From the NCBI GenBank assembly GCA_035221665.1, contig CM069142.1, positions 7,316,001 through 7,380,000 of the forward strand: a DNA stretch of 64,000 nt, written 5' to 3'. The first letter of the stretch is position 1. Each line of letters begins with the position of its first letter. The position numbers were made by a program. Below are positions 1-33,000 of the stretch, one piece after another. The DNA is from Okamejei kenojei. Taxonomy: Eukaryota.

Positions 1-3000
1 ATTATTTTAATAGTATCTTAGGAAACAAAGAGAGAAGAATGGACTTAATGTACCAATAACGTGGTAAGTGCATTTCTTAGTCCTTAATTTTTATAAATAC
101 TGTATTTCCCGAGGTGGGGGGAGAGCTCCATTCACAGTGTTTGGGGAATCTAGCATTGTGAAGGAGGGGATTGGGGTCAGTAACCCACTTGCCACGCTCC
201 GGTCTGAGTGCAGGTAGATGGGACTAGGTGAGAGTTAGTGTTCAGCACGGAGTAAAAGGGCGGAGATGGCCTGTTTCCGTGCTGTAATTGCTATATGGTT
301 TTATTGTGGCCGGGGAGTGAATTAGCTTGGGTGGCTGCCGCAGCGCTCCGCGCACGGACAGCCCTGGCCGCCACTTCCGAGGAAGGAAGCAGCTCGGGTG
401 ACTGCCGGTGGCCGCCGGGACCCTGCCACTTCAGCCACTTCAGCCCCTTCTGCTGGTCCCCACTCACCGCTGGCAGTGCTCTCCGTCTGAACATCTCTCA
501 CCTGCCGCTCGCCGGCCGGCTTCCCGCAAATCTTTAAATTCCGACAGCGCGTTCACGGGACCAGTTGAGGTTACTTGGCTGTGGGAATTTAAGGATTTGC
601 GGGACGTGTGAGGCTACAATCAGGACTGCTTTGAATCAGGTTTTGTGTTCGTGTTATAGACACAAGATAAGACACATCCCCCTGTTCCACTTTGCAAGCG
701 GTCACAGTCAGAGAGTCATCTTTAGTCAGAGGGTGGTGAATCTGCAGATTTCATTGCCCCAGACGGCACAAAGAGGCCAAGTCAATGGGTATTATTAAAG
801 TGGAGATTGACAGGTTCTTGATTAGTACGGGTGTCAGGGGCTATGGGGAGAAAGCAGGAGAATGGGGTTGAGAGGGAAGCATAGATCAGCCATGATTGAA
901 TGGCGGAGTAGACTCGATGGGCCGAATGGCCTAATTCTGCTCCGATGATTTATGAATTTATGAACTTATGTCATAGAACTGTACAGCATGGAATCAGGCC
1001 CTTTGGCCCATCTTGTCCAAGTCATCCATGTTGACACACTGGGCCAGTCCCACTTGCCTGCATTTGGCCCATATCCCTCTAAACCCTTTCTTATCCATAT
1101 CTCCATGGTGCATTTCATAGTAGATTTATATCATAACCATATAATATTGGGCAACATGGAGGCGCAGCGGTAGAGTTGCTGCCTTACAGTGCCTGCAATG
1201 CCAGTGACCCGCGTTAGATCCCAACTGCGGGTGCTGTCTTTACAGAGTTTGTATGTTCTCCCCGTGACCGCATGGGTTTCCTACGAGATCTCCCACACTA
1301 GGTGTGAGCGTGGTTGTGAGTGTGTGGGGGTGAGTATGAGACTCGGTGTGGGTGTGTGTGTGAGACTGGATATGAGTGTAGGTGTGAGTATGAGACTGGA
1401 TGTGAGTGTAGTGTGCATGTGCATGGAGTGTAAGTGTGAGTCTGGATGTGAGTGTGAGCGTGGGTGTGGGCGTGAGTGGCCGTGAGTGTGAGTATGTGTA
1501 TGTGTGTGCAGTGTGTGTGTGTGTGTGGGTGCATAGTTATACCTGTACATAGATACATAGACAATAGGTGCAGGAGGAGGCCATTCGGCCCTTCGGGCCA
1601 GCACCGCCATTCAATGTGATCATGGCTGATCATCCACAAAGTACCCCGTTCCTGCCTTCTCCCGACCTCCCTTGACCTCTATCTAACTCTCTTTTGAATG
1701 CCTCGACTGCCTTCTGAGGCAGAGAATTCCACACATCCACAACTCTCCATGTGAAAATGTTTTTCCTCATCTCAGTTCTAAATGGCCTATCCCTTATTCT
1801 TAAACTGTGGTCACTGGTTCTGGACTCCCCCAACATCGGGAACATGTTTCCTGCATCGAGTGTGTCCAATCCCTTAATAATTTTATATGTTACTCTAAGA
1901 TCCCCTCTCATCTTTCTAAATTCCAGTGAATACACACCCAGTCACTCCATTCTTTCATCATATGACAGTCCCGCCATCCTGAGAATTAACCTCATGAACC
2001 TACGCTGCAATCCCGCAATAGGAAGAATGTCCTTCCTCAAATTAGGAGACCAAAACTGCACACAATACTCCAGGTGTGGTCTCACCAGGGCTCTGTACAA
2101 CTGCAGAAGGACCTCTTTGCTCCTTAACTCAGCTCCTTTCGTTATAAAGGCCAACATGCCATTCGCTTTCTTCACTGCCTGCTGTACCTGCATGGAGTGT
2201 GGGTGTGGGTGTGAGTATAGGTGTGAGTGGAGTGTGAGTCTGATTGTGGGTGTGGGTGTGAGTCTGGCTGTGAGAGTGTGAGTGTGTGAGGGGAGTGTGA
2301 GCGTGTGTGAGAGTGTGAGTGTGTGTGAGAGTGAGTGAGGATGTGAGTCTGACTGTGAGTGTGAGGGGAGTGTGAGTGTGAGGGAGCGTGAGTGTGTGTG
2401 AGTGTGAGTGACTGTGTGTGTACAATGTTACAGAGGGCAGCACTGGGGTGGGAGATTGCAACCTTCACGTGGTCCGCCCTGTTTCAACCTGCAATCAACC
2501 TGGTGTGCACAATCAAATAAGATCAAGTTGTCCGACAACTTTAGGCTGTGCGCGCCACACACAAGAAGAAGTAGGGCAGCACTGCCTCTTTTTCCTTCTT
2601 GTGGGGATGAGGCATTAAGTTCTTCTTCCTCGTGTCCGGCCATCTTCTATATCACGTATTTCCAGTCGGTCAATGACGTTGGCGTGGGCGGTTGCACAAT
2701 TGGCTGCTTCAGTCATTCACTGTGGAACAGTTCCTGTCGTCAGCATTGCCCGGGAAGCCCCACGTGGAGGCTTCTGCTTGCATCCCGGTAACGTTCTGAT
2801 GCGCGGCTTCCTGTGAGAGTGTGGGGCTGATCTCATCGTTAGATCTCATCTTTTTCTCGCAGCGTTTTTTTTTCTGGATAGACTCATGAGTAAGAAGCAA
2901 ATAATTGGAATGACATGCGCGTTTATGAGCGCTGCCATATTCACGTGCCGACAGCTGTGAACAGGAAGAGGAACAGGAAGAAATGTTCCCACGGACAGCC

Positions 3001-30000: not shown

Positions 30001-33000
30001 CTTCTGCCCAACATGCCCGTGCTGACCAACATGCCCCATCTACACCAATCCCACCTGCCCGAGTTTGGCCCATATCCCTCTTAACCTTTCCTATCCATGT
30101 ACCTGGACAAATGTCTGTCAAATGCTGTTATTCAGCCAAGTCGAGTGTTAACAAATCTCATTGTAAGTACTCAACAAAGGATCAAAAAACCAAATGCAGT
30201 GCAAAGTAAAACTAAATAAAAAATATGGCAGGGTCTGGAACAGGGGAGGTTCAGTTGGTACCTGTGTAGGAAAGAACTACAGATATAGGTTCATACACTG
30301 AAGATAGACACACAATGCTGGAGTAACTCAGTGGGACAGGCATCATCTCTCGAGAGAAGGAGTGGCTGACCTTTCGGATCGAGACCCTTCTTCAGACTGA
30401 AGTTTTTAATTGATTTGTGCCCCTTCCTGTCTACAAATCAAGCACTGCTCTGAACAAGGTCTGAGGAAGGGCCTTGACCCAAACTGTCACCCGTTCCTTC
30501 TCTCCAGAGATGCTGCCTGTTCCTGAGGAGGGAGATGTAGAGGCCAGACCAGCACAGACTGAGCTGACTGACCACAGCCTGGCTTGCTGCTCTTCACCAA
30601 TGCTGTTTGTGTGGAAGGGCAGGCAGGCTGCGCTGATGCAGGGAGATGAATAAGGTGCAAAATAAGGTGGATGAATTGTTTGCGCAGTGGGTAGTTAAGG
30701 GATATGATATAGTTGGAATTACGGAGACATGGCTCCAGGGTGACCATGGCTGGGAGCTAAACATGCAGGGGTCTTCAATATTCAGGAAGGATAGACAGAA
30801 ATCAAGAGGAGGTGGGGTGGCATTGCTGGTTAAAGAGGAGATTAATGCAATAGCAAGGAGAGACAATAGCTTGGATGCTGTAGAATCAGTATGGGTAGAA
30901 CAGCGAAATAGCCATGGGTAGAAAACGGCTGGGAGGGTTGTGTGTGGGCTGGGAGGGGGTGTGTGGGAGGAGAGGGGTGTGTGGATGGGAGGAGTGTGTG
31001 TGGCGGTTTAAGATGTGTGTGGGGGCGAGGGGCGGGGTTGTAGGGGCAGTGGGGTTGTGGGGGGGAGGGGTGTGGGGCGGGGGGGCTTGTTGGGGGGAAT
31101 GATGTGGGGGCAGGGGTTTGAGGGGGATGGGGTGTGGGGGACAGCGGGGGTGGGGGGAGGGGTTGTGGGCGGGGGGGGGGGGGGGGGGGGGGGGGTGGGG
31201 GAGCGGGGGGTGTAGACGGGGGGGGGTTTGCGCAGTTAGAAGAATCGCGCAAACCGGAAGAGCAAAAGATCTAAGTTTTAGTTATGTGNNNNNNNNNNNN
31301 NNNNNNNNNNNNNNNNNNNNNNNNNNNNNNNNNNNNNNNNNNNNNNNNNNNNNNNNNNNNNNNNNNNNNNNNNNNNNNNNNNNNNNNNNNNNNNNNNNNN
31401 NNNNNNNNNNNNNNNNNNNNNNNNNNNNNNNNNNNNNNNNNNNNNNNNNNNNNNNNNNNNNNNNNNNNNNNNNNNNNNNNNNNNNNNNNNNNNNNNNNNN
31501 NNNNNNNNNNNNNNNNNNNTGGGACCCGTTGGGTGCCATGTTCACACGGGAGGGCTGGTCCCCCAACGCAATATTCCATCAATTCCAATATTGGTGGCCA
31601 GTGGAGGGGGGGCTTTCTGGAGCACTGGTATTGGTGTTATGGGCTGAAGGGACTGGTCTCAAGAAGGCTAGTATGGACATTGTGGGCCAAATGGATTCTT
31701 GTGGTGGCAGCTAGTCCCTCAAGCCTGATGTGCTGGCAGCTCTCTCACGGCCGGTGGGCTGGCAGTTGACTCATGGCTATTCCTTGAAATTCCATTTCAA
31801 GCAGGGTGCAAGGCCACCAAATTCAAATCCATTTTCCTACCATTTCAAGCAGGGTGCAAGGCCACCAAATTCAAGTGCAGTTTCTTACCACTTCAAGCAG
31901 GGTGCAAGGCCACCAAATTCAAGTGCAGTTTCATACCATTTCAAGCAGGGTGCATGGCCATCGAATTCAAGTGCAGTTTCCTACCACTTCAAGCAGGATG
32001 CAAGGCCACCAAATTCAAGTGCAGTTTCATACCATTTCAAGCACGGTGCAAGGCCACCAAATTCAAGTGCAGTTTCATACCATTTCATGCAGCGTGCAGG
32101 CCACCGAATTCAAATGCAGTTTCATACCATTTCAAGCAGGGTGAAACCACCAAAAAAACACACACAAAACACCACACTCACAATTCAGTAGACATTCAGT
32201 ATGTTCAGTTGATTCATAGCTCAGACAGAGTTGTGACCTCTCCCTCCCCCATCATGCAGAGACTGAGCCACACCCACACTTCCGGATTTTATAATCCCTC
32301 CACCCTCCTACCCGAAAGGGTGTGGCCTTCATGGCGTGATTAACAGTAGAGAGATTCTCAACATTTTTTAAACACTAATAACACTTTTATTTTTAATTGA
32401 TGGGAAGAATCCTCTGCACCAGATGAGCGGAGGGGGACTGAGTAAGATTGCCAAATATCACAGCCGTTAGTGGTAGCGTTTCATCTGAAATCAATATACA
32501 GTGCAAACCGGAAGTTTAGACCACCAACCATTTGCAGTGCTTTTACTTCAGCCCAAAAACCCCAAACCAACCATTTGCAGTGCCTTCACTTCAACCCAAA
32601 ACCCCCAAACCAACCATTTGTAGTGCTTTTACTTCTACTGTTACTTGGTATACAAACTTAAAGCACACGGTATTGGTGGTTCAGTATTGATGTGGATAGA
32701 GAGCTGGCTGGCAGACAGGAAGCAAAGAGTAGGAGTGAACGGGTCCTTTTCAGGATGGCAGACAATGAATAGTGGGGTGCCGCAAGGCTCAGTGCTGGGA
32801 CCCCAGCTATTTACAATATACATTAATGATTTGGACGAGGGAATTAAATGCAACATCTCGAAGTTTGCGGATGACACAAAGCTGGGGGGCAGTGTTAGCT
32901 GTGAGGAGGATGCTAGGATGGCTTGGATAGACTGGGTGAGTGGGAAAATGCATGGCAGATGCAGTATAATGTGGATAAATGTGAGGTTATCCACTTTGGT

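What the first reader, a model, noticed from the sequence alone, without database searches (positions are those of the whole stretch)
1..30410. Two leader+IgV cassettes upstream of a single C-V-TM module: possible variable-cassette B7 locus
Seen: the upstream region, leader and V1 unit is present twice about 25 kb apart, while the C, V2 and TM exons occur once. The copies differ by real substitutions, three of them amino-acid changing in V1 (G/A, L/S, V/M), and copy 1 has a 1-bp deletion in a GG run, the kind of error common elsewhere in this assembly. Inference: if the deletion is an error, copy 1 has intact phase-1 splice sites and could splice to the shared exon at 36433, giving alternative N-terminal ligand domains on a common body. 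Otherwise it is a pseudogene fragment or a falsely duplicated haplotype.
[Added by the scan's program, not by the reader: the finding's places include an assembly gap (unread letters, written N; its length is only estimated) at 13157 to 13656. Whether the letters on both sides are continuous or in frame is not known: test that first.]
Basis: partly seen in the sequence, partly recalled or inferred. Interest (0 to 1): 0.65.

Follow-up and report, generated by a model that had tools for sequence, protein, structure and literature searches.

The report
Partial upstream duplicate of B7-like gene
One complete B7-type immune-ligand gene sits in this window, and its front end (signal-peptide exon plus first Ig domain exon) is present a second time upstream, most likely as a young gene fragment or an assembly duplicate rather than a system of interchangeable ligand domains.

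Summary
Window 1-5496 repeats 24866-30410 at 97.1% identity. Both copies carry a leader exon and an IgV exon; the IgC, second IgV and TM exons occur once. Copy 1's IgV exon has 6 substitutions (3 replacement, 3 silent) and a 1-bp deletion at 4986.

The gene is a B7-H3/B7-H4-like gene with HHLA2-like IgV-IgC-IgV-TM architecture.

The 13157-13656 gap is flanked by a 5.3-kb dovetail duplicate (86% identity) whose differences look like raw-read noise. The gap is probably an unmerged overlap, which puts the copies about 19 kb apart instead of 25 kb.

Copy 1 stops 479 bp into the intron, at the terminus of a repeat element with 7 bp of shared sequence.

The cassette reading is weak:
- Only two copies are visible, about 98.7% alike.
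- The IgV exon is internal. Copy 2's acceptor (29605) lies between copy 1 and the IgC exon, so mutually exclusive use is not the default outcome.

Best reading: a young partial 5' duplication, probably non-functional (0.5). Main rival: haplotypic false duplication (0.33). Read depth, spanning reads and RNA are needed to decide.

The parts
1..5496 (+). Copy 1 of the duplicated block: at least 2982 bp upstream sequence, leader exon, intron, IgV exon and 479 bp of the next intron. Homology starts at window base 1, so the left end is not visible.
2983..3040 (+). Copy 1 leader exon (MFPRTACFCIFGIFQLISA plus 1 base), identical to copy 2. The flanking bases at -1 and intron +6 differ.
4692..5017 (+). 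Copy 1 IgV exon, 326 nt. It has 6 substitutions and a 1-bp deletion at 4986 relative to copy 2. Both splice sites are intact. Read as assembled, the frame is lost for the last 10-11 codons and for anything spliced downstream.
5490..5860 (.). Repeat element with 79-bp inverted arms (5494-5572 / 5803-5725) and a second copy at 51089-51443. Its terminus overlaps the end of the duplicated block by 7 bp (TTTTAAT). This is the right junction of copy 1.
6012..9165 (-). Tyrosine-recombinase retroelement remnant. Pfam Phage_integrase E=6.8e-05, 23.1 bits, below the 27.1-bit cutoff. The RNase H / RT-like ORF pieces are named from recall only.
7863..13152 (+). Left member of the gap-flanking duplicate. 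It runs to 4 bases before the gap.
13157..13656 (.). Assembly gap of 500 N. It was not filled or looked up. Its flanks form a dovetail duplicate, so it is probably an unmerged overlap.
13673..19039 (+). Right member of the gap-flanking duplicate. It starts 17 bases after the gap and is 86.3% identical to 7863-13152, with 207 mismatches (58 ts : 149 tv) and 360 one-base indels.
24866..30410 (+). Copy 2 of the duplicated block. It is continuous with the rest of the gene.
27855..27912 (+). Copy 2 leader exon.
29605..29931 (+). Copy 2 IgV exon (open, 108 codons). Pfam V-set E=4.8e-10. Best solved relatives are VTCN1/B7-H4 IgV (70.9 bits) and CD276/B7-H3 IgV (about 51 bits per domain).
36433..36717 (+). 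IgC exon, single copy. Pfam C2-set_3 E=7e-13. Best solved relative is CD276 IgC (36 bits per domain). It has three N-x-S/T sites.
39060..39365 (+). Second IgV exon, single copy. Pfam V-set E=4.4e-10. It has no close solved relative and carries two extra cysteines.
41965..42089 (+). Transmembrane exon (hydrophobic stretch YGLFAFLAMVVALLIICI), followed by an 11-residue tail (PIWCLNSQRH-type) and an in-exon stop at 42087-42089.

Best explanation
The window holds one complete type I membrane gene of the B7 family: leader, IgV, IgC, a second IgV, and a TM exon with a very short tail. A second copy of only its 5' module lies upstream in the same orientation.

I read this extra copy as a young, real, partial segmental duplication. 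The copied block contains at least 3 kb of upstream sequence, the leader exon, the IgV exon and 479 bp of the following intron. It ends at a junction with the terminus of a repeat element. It has no IgC, second IgV or TM exon of its own.

It is most likely a non-functional gene fragment. As assembled it is frameshifted. Even if the frameshift is an assembly error, a transcript from it would by default splice into copy 2's IgV exon, not replace it.

Shown: the duplication, the exon structure, the junction and the state of the gap flanks.
Inferred: that the duplication is real in the genome, that the fragment is inert, and the splicing outcome.
For: 1. The differences between the copies look biological, not like read noise. 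Substitutions are 1.26% in unique sequence and 1.53% in repeats. There are 33 ts: 31 tv, and 14 of the 33 transitions are at CpG. There are 17 multi-base indels. The noisy duplicates elsewhere in the window differ: 58 ts: 149 tv with 360 one-base indels.

2. The two contigs give opposite orders. On the contig left of the gap the block lies 2.4 kb upstream of 7863-13152. On the contig right of the gap it lies 5.8 kb downstream of the same sequence (13673-19039). That 5.3-kb stretch is a mosaic of different repeats, and its two versions differ the way two noisy reads of one locus do. So the two contig ends overlap, and a block lies on each side of one spacer. Simple overlap of two haplotype contigs does not produce this geometry.

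3. The right end of copy 1 is a clean breakpoint at 5496/30410, with 7 bp (TTTTAAT) shared between the intron sequence and the terminus of a repeat element. This is typical of a microhomology junction. It is too short to cause a mis-join by k-mers or read overlap (inference).

4. No trace of the downstream intron or of the IgC, second IgV or TM exons follows copy 1.

5. Copy 2's IgV acceptor at 29605 lies between copy 1's donor (5017) and the IgC acceptor (36433).
Against: - A gap lies between the two copies on one scaffold. This is one of the listed hallmarks of false duplications (PMC9516828, passages read).
- The assembly demonstrably contains artefactual local duplicates next to gaps: 7863-13152 vs 13673-19039, and 53621-57660 vs 57663-61517.
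- Homology starts at window base 1. The left contig may therefore be a short piece that begins inside the block, or the duplication may be larger than seen.
- Copy 1 lacks a base at 15 of the 22 one-base indels. This would fit a contig with lower read support.
- Read depth, k-mers and spanning reads could not be examined.
- A 7-bp overlap could also be a target preference of the element, since only two instances are seen.
Confidence: 0.5

Rival explanations
1. False haplotypic (heterotype) duplication. The genome has one 5' module, and 1-5496 is the other allele of 24866-30410. It was kept as separate sequence and placed upstream during contig building or scaffolding.
For: - A gap (13157-13656) lies between the pair on one scaffold, a stated hallmark of false duplications (PMC9516828).
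- The same window has two other artefactual duplicates around gaps.
- Homology begins at window base 1.
- Copy 1 has an excess of missing single bases, 15 of 22, as expected for poorly supported sequence.
- CpG transitions and multi-base indels fit alleles as well as paralogues.
Against: - The left contig joins the block to 5497 onward without a gap. The sequence it joins to lies only about 11 kb upstream of copy 2. A random mis-join through a high-copy repeat would rarely land that close.
- The junction shares only 7 bp.
- The order of block and spacer is opposite on the two contigs, which simple allelic overlap does not give.
- 1.26% substitutions plus 17 multi-base indels in 5.5 kb would be high heterozygosity for a vertebrate. 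This rests on recalled knowledge, and the species is unknown.
Confidence: 0.33
2. One reading: two alternative promoter+leader+IgV cassettes, each spliced to the shared IgC-IgV-TM body. This would give two ligand-binding heads on one stalk.
For: - Both cassettes have identical, intact leader exons and IgV splice sites in phase 1.
- At least 2982 bp of upstream sequence is duplicated with them.
- Two of the three replacement changes lie near the end of the domain. L/S aligns just before the loop between the last two strands in the CD276 alignment, and V/M lies in the last strand.
- The frameshift could be an assembly error.
Against: - Copy 2's IgV exon has its own acceptor (29605) upstream of the IgC acceptor, so exclusive use would need regulated skipping.
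- Only two copies are visible, about 98.7% alike.
- pN/pS is 0.32 from 3+3 changes.
- Copy 1 is frameshifted as assembled.
- I know of no precedent in the B7 family. This is from recall plus the papers seen, none of which was a dedicated search for such cassettes.
Confidence: 0.05
3. Exon-gain isoform. Transcripts from the upstream promoter include both IgV exons and give IgV-IgV-IgC-IgV-TM. This would be comparable to the way exon duplication produced 4Ig-B7-H3 in mammals.
For: - Both IgV exons are symmetric phase 1-1 exons, so including both keeps the frame if the 4986 deletion is an error.
- Copy 2's acceptor is the first strong IgV acceptor downstream of copy 1's donor.
- Tandem exon duplication creating extra Ig domains is documented for B7-H3 (PMC3172298, abstract read).
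Against: - The frameshift as assembled.
- About 24.6 kb (as assembled) of repeat-rich intron would have to be removed.
- A possible acceptor in front of copy 2's leader exon (ttctcgcag|CG at 27737) would bring in a stop codon in that frame (my reading of the sequence).
- No expression data.
Confidence: 0.07

Closest known systems
B7-H3 (CD276) and B7-H4 (VTCN1)
   Same: - The first IgV exon matches VTCN1 IgV (4gos_A, E=9.5e-19, 70.9 bits) and both IgV domains of CD276 (about 51 bits each).
- The IgC exon matches CD276 IgC best (36 bits per domain).
- There is one Ig domain per exon, all in phase 1.
- The very short tail after the TM resembles B7-H4 (recalled).
   Different: - There is an extra membrane-proximal IgV exon that has no close solved relative.
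- No phylogeny or synteny could be done, so orthology is open.
HHLA2 (B7-H7)
   Same: - The ectodomain order IgV-IgC-IgV followed by a TM is the feature that sets HHLA2 apart within the family (PMC11119147, passage read).
- VTCN1 and HHLA2 cluster together in one IgSF survey (PMC13262535, passages read).
- HHLA2/B7H7 orthologues are reported in fishes (PMC11599192, passage read).
   Different: - HHLA2 has a 49-residue cytoplasmic tail. Here the stop follows about 11 residues after the hydrophobic stretch.
- No HHLA2 chain was among the 60 best solved-structure matches of the first IgV.
Tandem exon duplication giving 4Ig-B7-H3 in mammals
   Same: A recent local duplication of Ig-domain exons inside or next to a B7 gene (PMC3172298, abstract).
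   Different: - There, the duplicated unit is an internal IgV-IgC exon pair that stays inside one transcript.
- Here, the unit is the gene's 5' end (upstream region, leader, IgV), about 19-25 kb away. As assembled it does not yield an open reading frame.
False duplications in draft vertebrate assemblies (heterotype and homotype)
   Same: - A gap lies between the members of the pair.
- Noisy under-collapsed copies occur next to gaps (PMC9516828, passages).
   Different: - For the leader+IgV block, the differences have a mutational signature, not a noise signature.
- The geometry is not a simple overlap of contig ends.
- The depth and k-mer criteria could not be tested.
Variable-first-exon clusters (protocadherin, UGT1A type; recalled, not searched)
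   Same: Upstream units, each with possible own promoter, lie in front of shared downstream exons.
   Different: - Those clusters have many diverged first exons with a donor only.
- Here there are two near-identical two-exon units, and the variable domain sits in an internal exon with an acceptor.

Membership tests
B7 family (B7-H3 / B7-H4 / HHLA2 group) | Type I membrane protein with signal peptide, N-terminal IgV, IgC, then TM | tested here: met
   - Leader with hydrophobic core and a phase-1 donor.
- Pfam V-set E=4.8e-10 and C2-set_3 E=7e-13.
- TM exon.
B7 family (B7-H3 / B7-H4 / HHLA2 group) | Closest sequence relatives are B7 members | tested here: met
   Among solved structures only. IgV: VTCN1 70.9 bits and CD276 103.8 bits over two domains. 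IgC: CD276 73.5 bits over two domains.
B7 family (B7-H3 / B7-H4 / HHLA2 group) | One Ig domain per exon, phase 1 boundaries | tested here: met
   All four downstream exons start and end in phase 1 with AG/GT sites.
HHLA2 (B7-H7) orthologue | IgV-IgC-IgV ectodomain | tested here: met
   Pfam V-set, C2-set_3 and V-set on consecutive exons. The defining feature is taken from PMC11119147.
HHLA2 (B7-H7) orthologue | Long (about 49 aa) cytoplasmic tail | tested here: not met
   A stop codon inside the TM exon at 42087-42089 comes about 11 residues after the hydrophobic stretch. A further exon reached through an unseen donor cannot be excluded.
HHLA2 (B7-H7) orthologue | Orthology by phylogeny or conserved synteny | not testable with these tools
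   No vertebrate protein or genome collection was open. The window holds no other recognisable host gene.
Variable-exon cluster with shared constant exons | Several diverged variable units | tested here: not met
   Two units are present in the window, with 6 substitutions in 326 nt of the IgV exon and none in the leader. Sequence upstream of the window was not available.
Variable-exon cluster with shared constant exons | Each variable exon is a first exon with a donor but no acceptor, which makes use mutually exclusive | tested here: not met
   The variable domain is in an internal exon with an acceptor (4692 / 29605). The defining feature itself is recalled.
Variable-exon cluster with shared constant exons | Transcripts joining each variable unit to the constant exons | not testable with these tools
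   No expression data.
False heterotype duplication (Ko et al. 2022 criteria) | Gap between the duplicated pair on the same scaffold | tested here: met
   The gap at 13157-13656 lies between 1-5496 and 24866-30410. The criterion is from PMC9516828.
False heterotype duplication (Ko et al. 2022 criteria) | Half read depth, haplotype-specific k-mers, discordant read pairs | not testable with these tools
   No reads available.
Homotype false duplication (for the gap flanks 7863-13152 / 13673-19039 only) | Two versions of one sequence that differ by read errors, placed next to a gap | tested here: met
   The alignment is a dovetail running to within 4 and 17 bases of the gap. It has 58 ts: 149 tv and 360 one-base indels in 5608 columns. 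Read depth was not testable.

The most novel reading that the evidence does not exclude
The duplication is real, the 4986 deletion is an assembly error, and each unit has its own promoter. The locus would then express one IgC-IgV-TM body with either of two (or, if more units lie upstream of the window, several) IgV heads that differ at the loop between the last two strands, or a four-domain IgV-IgV-IgC-IgV form. That would be an early stage of ligand-domain diversification by cassette duplication in a B7 gene.
Probability: 0.07. Interest if true: 0.6.

Novelty: new member of a known kind. Interest (0 to 1): 0.22.

Why it matters
If the duplication is real, it is an ordinary young partial gene duplication. 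It would be of local interest for annotating this B7-like gene, because an annotator could wrongly call a second gene or a chimeric first exon.

If it is an artefact, it illustrates how draft assemblies inflate immune gene counts.

Either way, the practical message is that the 5' end of this gene model, and the 25-kb spacing, should not be trusted until reads are checked.

Only the low-probability cassette or four-domain reading would bear on how B7 ligands diversify.

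Tried and rejected
- Rfam scan of the whole window: 0 matches at gathering score.
- AlphaFold2 on the second IgV exon alone, without an alignment: mean pLDDT 36.9, unusable. 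No fold search was run and the second job was not spent.
- Search for a continuation of copy 1 after its junction: 5497-7862 has no match in 30411-36432. 30411-31288 has only short repeat matches elsewhere.
- Search for decayed IgC, IgV2 or TM exons behind copy 1: none (tblastn). A regex scan for Ig signatures found only the known second IgV and one chance hit at 54569.
- Pfam on 5 ORFs from the gap-flanking duplicate: 0 of 5 matched. Its repeat content rests on self-BLAST and on ORF pieces I recognise from recall.
- Flajnik et al. 2012 on B7 evolution (PMC3709836) is not held. It was seen only as a reference.
- Simple haplotig overlap as the explanation for the leader+IgV pair: considered and rejected, because block and spacer are in opposite order on the two contigs.
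- Read noise as the source of the leader+IgV differences: considered and rejected.
- The complex-prediction tool and the protein atlas were not used, because no claim here depends on them.

Full report
**Source.** The window is not human. Its best matches to human B7 proteins are distant. It is full of repeats that I recognise, from recall only, as typical of cartilaginous fishes. The species was not determined and no attempt was made to trace the record.

**Gaps.** The window has four gaps: 13157-13656, 31289-31519, 40451-40610 and 54918-55157. None was filled or looked up.

**The gap inside the finding (tested first).**
- The 5.3 kb that ends 4 bases before the gap (7863-13152) is repeated from 17 bases after it (13673-19039), at 86.3% identity over 5608 columns.
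- This is a dovetail. The alignment runs from the start of the right-hand contig to the end of the left-hand contig.
- The differences are 58 transitions against 149 transversions, with 360 one-base indels scattered in both directions. That is the pattern of two error-rich reads of one sequence, not of diverged copies.
- The stretch is a mosaic: retroelement ORF pieces on the minus strand at 7499-9165 and a piece of another repeat family at 10445-10788. It is therefore not simply two members of one transposon family.
- I conclude that the gap is most likely an unmerged overlap, a homotype false duplication in the terms of PMC9516828 (passages read).
- Consequence: the 24,865-bp spacing of the two blocks is an assembled value. 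Collapsing the duplicate (offset 5,810 bp) gives about 19 kb.
- No exon of the gene lies near the gap, so reading frame across it is not an issue.
- A second duplicate with the same noise signature lies at 53621-57660 / 57663-61517 around the 54918-55157 gap.

**The observation.**
- Window 1-5496 matches 24866-30410 at 97.1%.
- The gene on the plus strand, copy 2 coordinates:

| Exon | Coordinates |
|---|---|
| Leader | 27855-27912 |
| IgV | 29605-29931 |
| IgC | 36433-36717 |
| Second IgV | 39060-39365 |
| TM (in-exon stop 42087-42089) | 41965-42089 |

- Every boundary is AG/GT in phase 1.
- Copy 1 has the leader at 2983-3040 and the IgV exon at 4692-5017, with identical splice sites.
- Each exon peptide was searched separately against the window. 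Leader and IgV occur twice and the other three once.
Statements about the whole protein are therefore assembled from per-exon results.

**Differences between the two copies.**
- Leader exon: 0 substitutions in 58 nt.
- IgV exon: 6 substitutions in 326 nt, three replacement (G/A, L/S, V/M) and three silent. pN/pS is 0.32, which says nothing with so few changes.
- Four of the six substitutions and the 1-bp deletion (4986) fall within 28 nt near the exon's end.
- Over the whole block, substitutions are 1.26% in unique sequence and 1.53% in repeats.
- There are 33 ts: 31 tv, with 14 transitions at CpG, and 17 multi-base indels. The two copies are therefore different biological sequences, alleles or paralogues, not one sequence read twice.
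- One-base indels number 22, mostly in runs of 2-4 bases, and 15 of them are bases missing from copy 1.
- That is far more than I would expect for 1.3% divergence (recalled indel-to-substitution ratios of about 1 in 8-10). Many are therefore probably consensus errors.
- At this density a 326-nt exon is hit with probability 0.73. The frameshift is weak evidence for or against function.

**What the gene is.**
- Pfam, exon by exon: V-set (E=4.8e-10), C2-set_3 (E=7e-13), V-set (E=4.4e-10).
- Solved structures: the first IgV is nearest to VTCN1/B7-H4 (70.9 bits) and CD276/B7-H3 (about 51 bits per domain).
- The IgC is nearest to CD276.
- The second IgV has only weak generic Ig matches.
- The order IgV-IgC-IgV-TM is the hallmark of HHLA2/B7-H7 (PMC11119147, passage). 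The tail here, however, is about 11 residues against 49 in HHLA2.
- VTCN1 and HHLA2 group together in a recent survey (PMC13262535, passages).
- I file the gene as a B7-H3/B7-H4/HHLA2-group member of unresolved orthology.

**Ends of the duplicated block.**
- The left end is not visible, because homology starts at window base 1.
- The right end is sharp at 5496/30410, 479 bp into the intron after the IgV exon.
- In copy 1 it abuts a repeat element (5490-5860; second copy at 51089-51443). Seven bases (TTTTAAT) are shared between the intron sequence and the element's terminus.
- Nothing after the junction resembles the rest of the intron or the downstream exons.
- In copy 2 the breakpoint lies between two inverted short-repeat fragments, 30333-30397 and 30459-30523.

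**Real or artefact.**

For a real duplication:
- The mutational signature of the differences.
- The 7-bp junction overlap.
- The geometry. The left contig has the block upstream of the 5.3-kb stretch and the right contig has it downstream. If that stretch is one locus, there must be a block on each side.

For an artefact:
- A gap lies between the pair.
- The assembly shows proven local artefacts.
- The block starts at base 1.
- Copy 1 carries an excess of missing bases.

I put a real partial duplication at 0.5 and a haplotypic false duplication at 0.33. The window alone cannot decide.

**How it would work.**
- In known variable-exon clusters each variable exon is a first exon with a donor only (recalled). 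That makes their use mutually exclusive.
- Here the variable domain is an internal exon. A transcript from copy 1 would meet copy 2's IgV acceptor at 29605 before the IgC acceptor at 36433.
- There may also be an acceptor in front of copy 2's leader exon, at 27737.
- The default outcomes are a tandem IgV-IgV form, if the deletion is an error, or a transcript with a premature stop. A head swap is not a default outcome.
- The IgV donor is a non-consensus GTCAGA in both copies.
- The closest documented precedent for extra Ig exons in this family is the tandem IgV-IgC exon duplication behind 4Ig-B7-H3 (PMC3172298, abstract). That duplication is internal to one transcript.

**Verdict.** The cassette interpretation is not supported by anything testable here. 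The feature is most likely a young 5' gene fragment or an assembly duplicate. Interest is low unless reads and RNA show otherwise.

**Left unchecked.** The supplements of the cited papers were also closed and may list B7 genes of cartilaginous fishes.

Noticed in passing
window 7863-13152 and 13673-19039: A 5.3-kb dovetail duplicate flanks the 500-N gap. Identity is 86%, with 58 ts: 149 tv and 360 one-base indels. It looks like one sequence entered twice from error-rich reads.
   Followed up: yes
window 53621-57660 and 57663-61517: Directly adjacent duplicate of about 4 kb at about 80% identity, with the same noise signature. In the 55790-57660 / 59706-61517 piece that was analysed there are 43 ts: 118 tv and 157 one-base indels. 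The 54918-55157 gap lies inside the first unit. It is probably another gap-filling artefact.
   Followed up: partly
window 21598-23241, minus strand: Tc1/mariner-type element with an open 317-residue transposase ORF (21825-22775; Pfam HTH_Tnp_Tc3_2 E=5.8e-19, DDE_3 E=2.3e-12). Its 219-bp inverted ends are 92% complementary.
   Followed up: partly
window 6012-9165, minus strand: Remnant of a tyrosine-recombinase retroelement directly behind copy 1's junction. Pfam Phage_integrase scores 23.1 bits, below its 27.1-bit cutoff. The neighbouring RNase H / RT-like ORF pieces are recognised from recall only.
   Followed up: partly
window 46000-50200, plus strand: Block with 61-63% G+C holding protease, reverse transcriptase and RNase H-like pieces in different frames. 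All Pfam matches are below their cutoffs. It looks like a frameshifted LTR-retroelement pol. Whether the shifts are decay or assembly errors is open.
   Followed up: partly
window 31792-32154, 32523-32635, 33404-33602: Minisatellites in the IgV-IgC intron: a 48-bp unit in 7.6 copies, and related 43- and 40-bp units.
   Followed up: no
window 30333-30397 and 30459-30523: Two short-repeat fragments in inverted orientation bracket the copy 2 side of the duplication breakpoint (30410). This is a possible hairpin-forming site.
   Followed up: no
window 39060-39365: The second IgV exon has four cysteines (exon-peptide positions 14, 42, 54, 84), two more than the canonical pair, and a single N-x-S/T site.
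   Followed up: no
window 5018-5023 and 29932-29937: The IgV exon's donor is GTCAGA in both copies, with a non-consensus C at +3. The other donors of the gene are close to consensus.
   Followed up: no
window 20055-21432 and 44460-45817 (inverted): Two copies of another repeat family at 76% identity, one in the spacer and one downstream of the gene. Short pieces also occur at 10445-10788 and 16480-16688.
   Followed up: no
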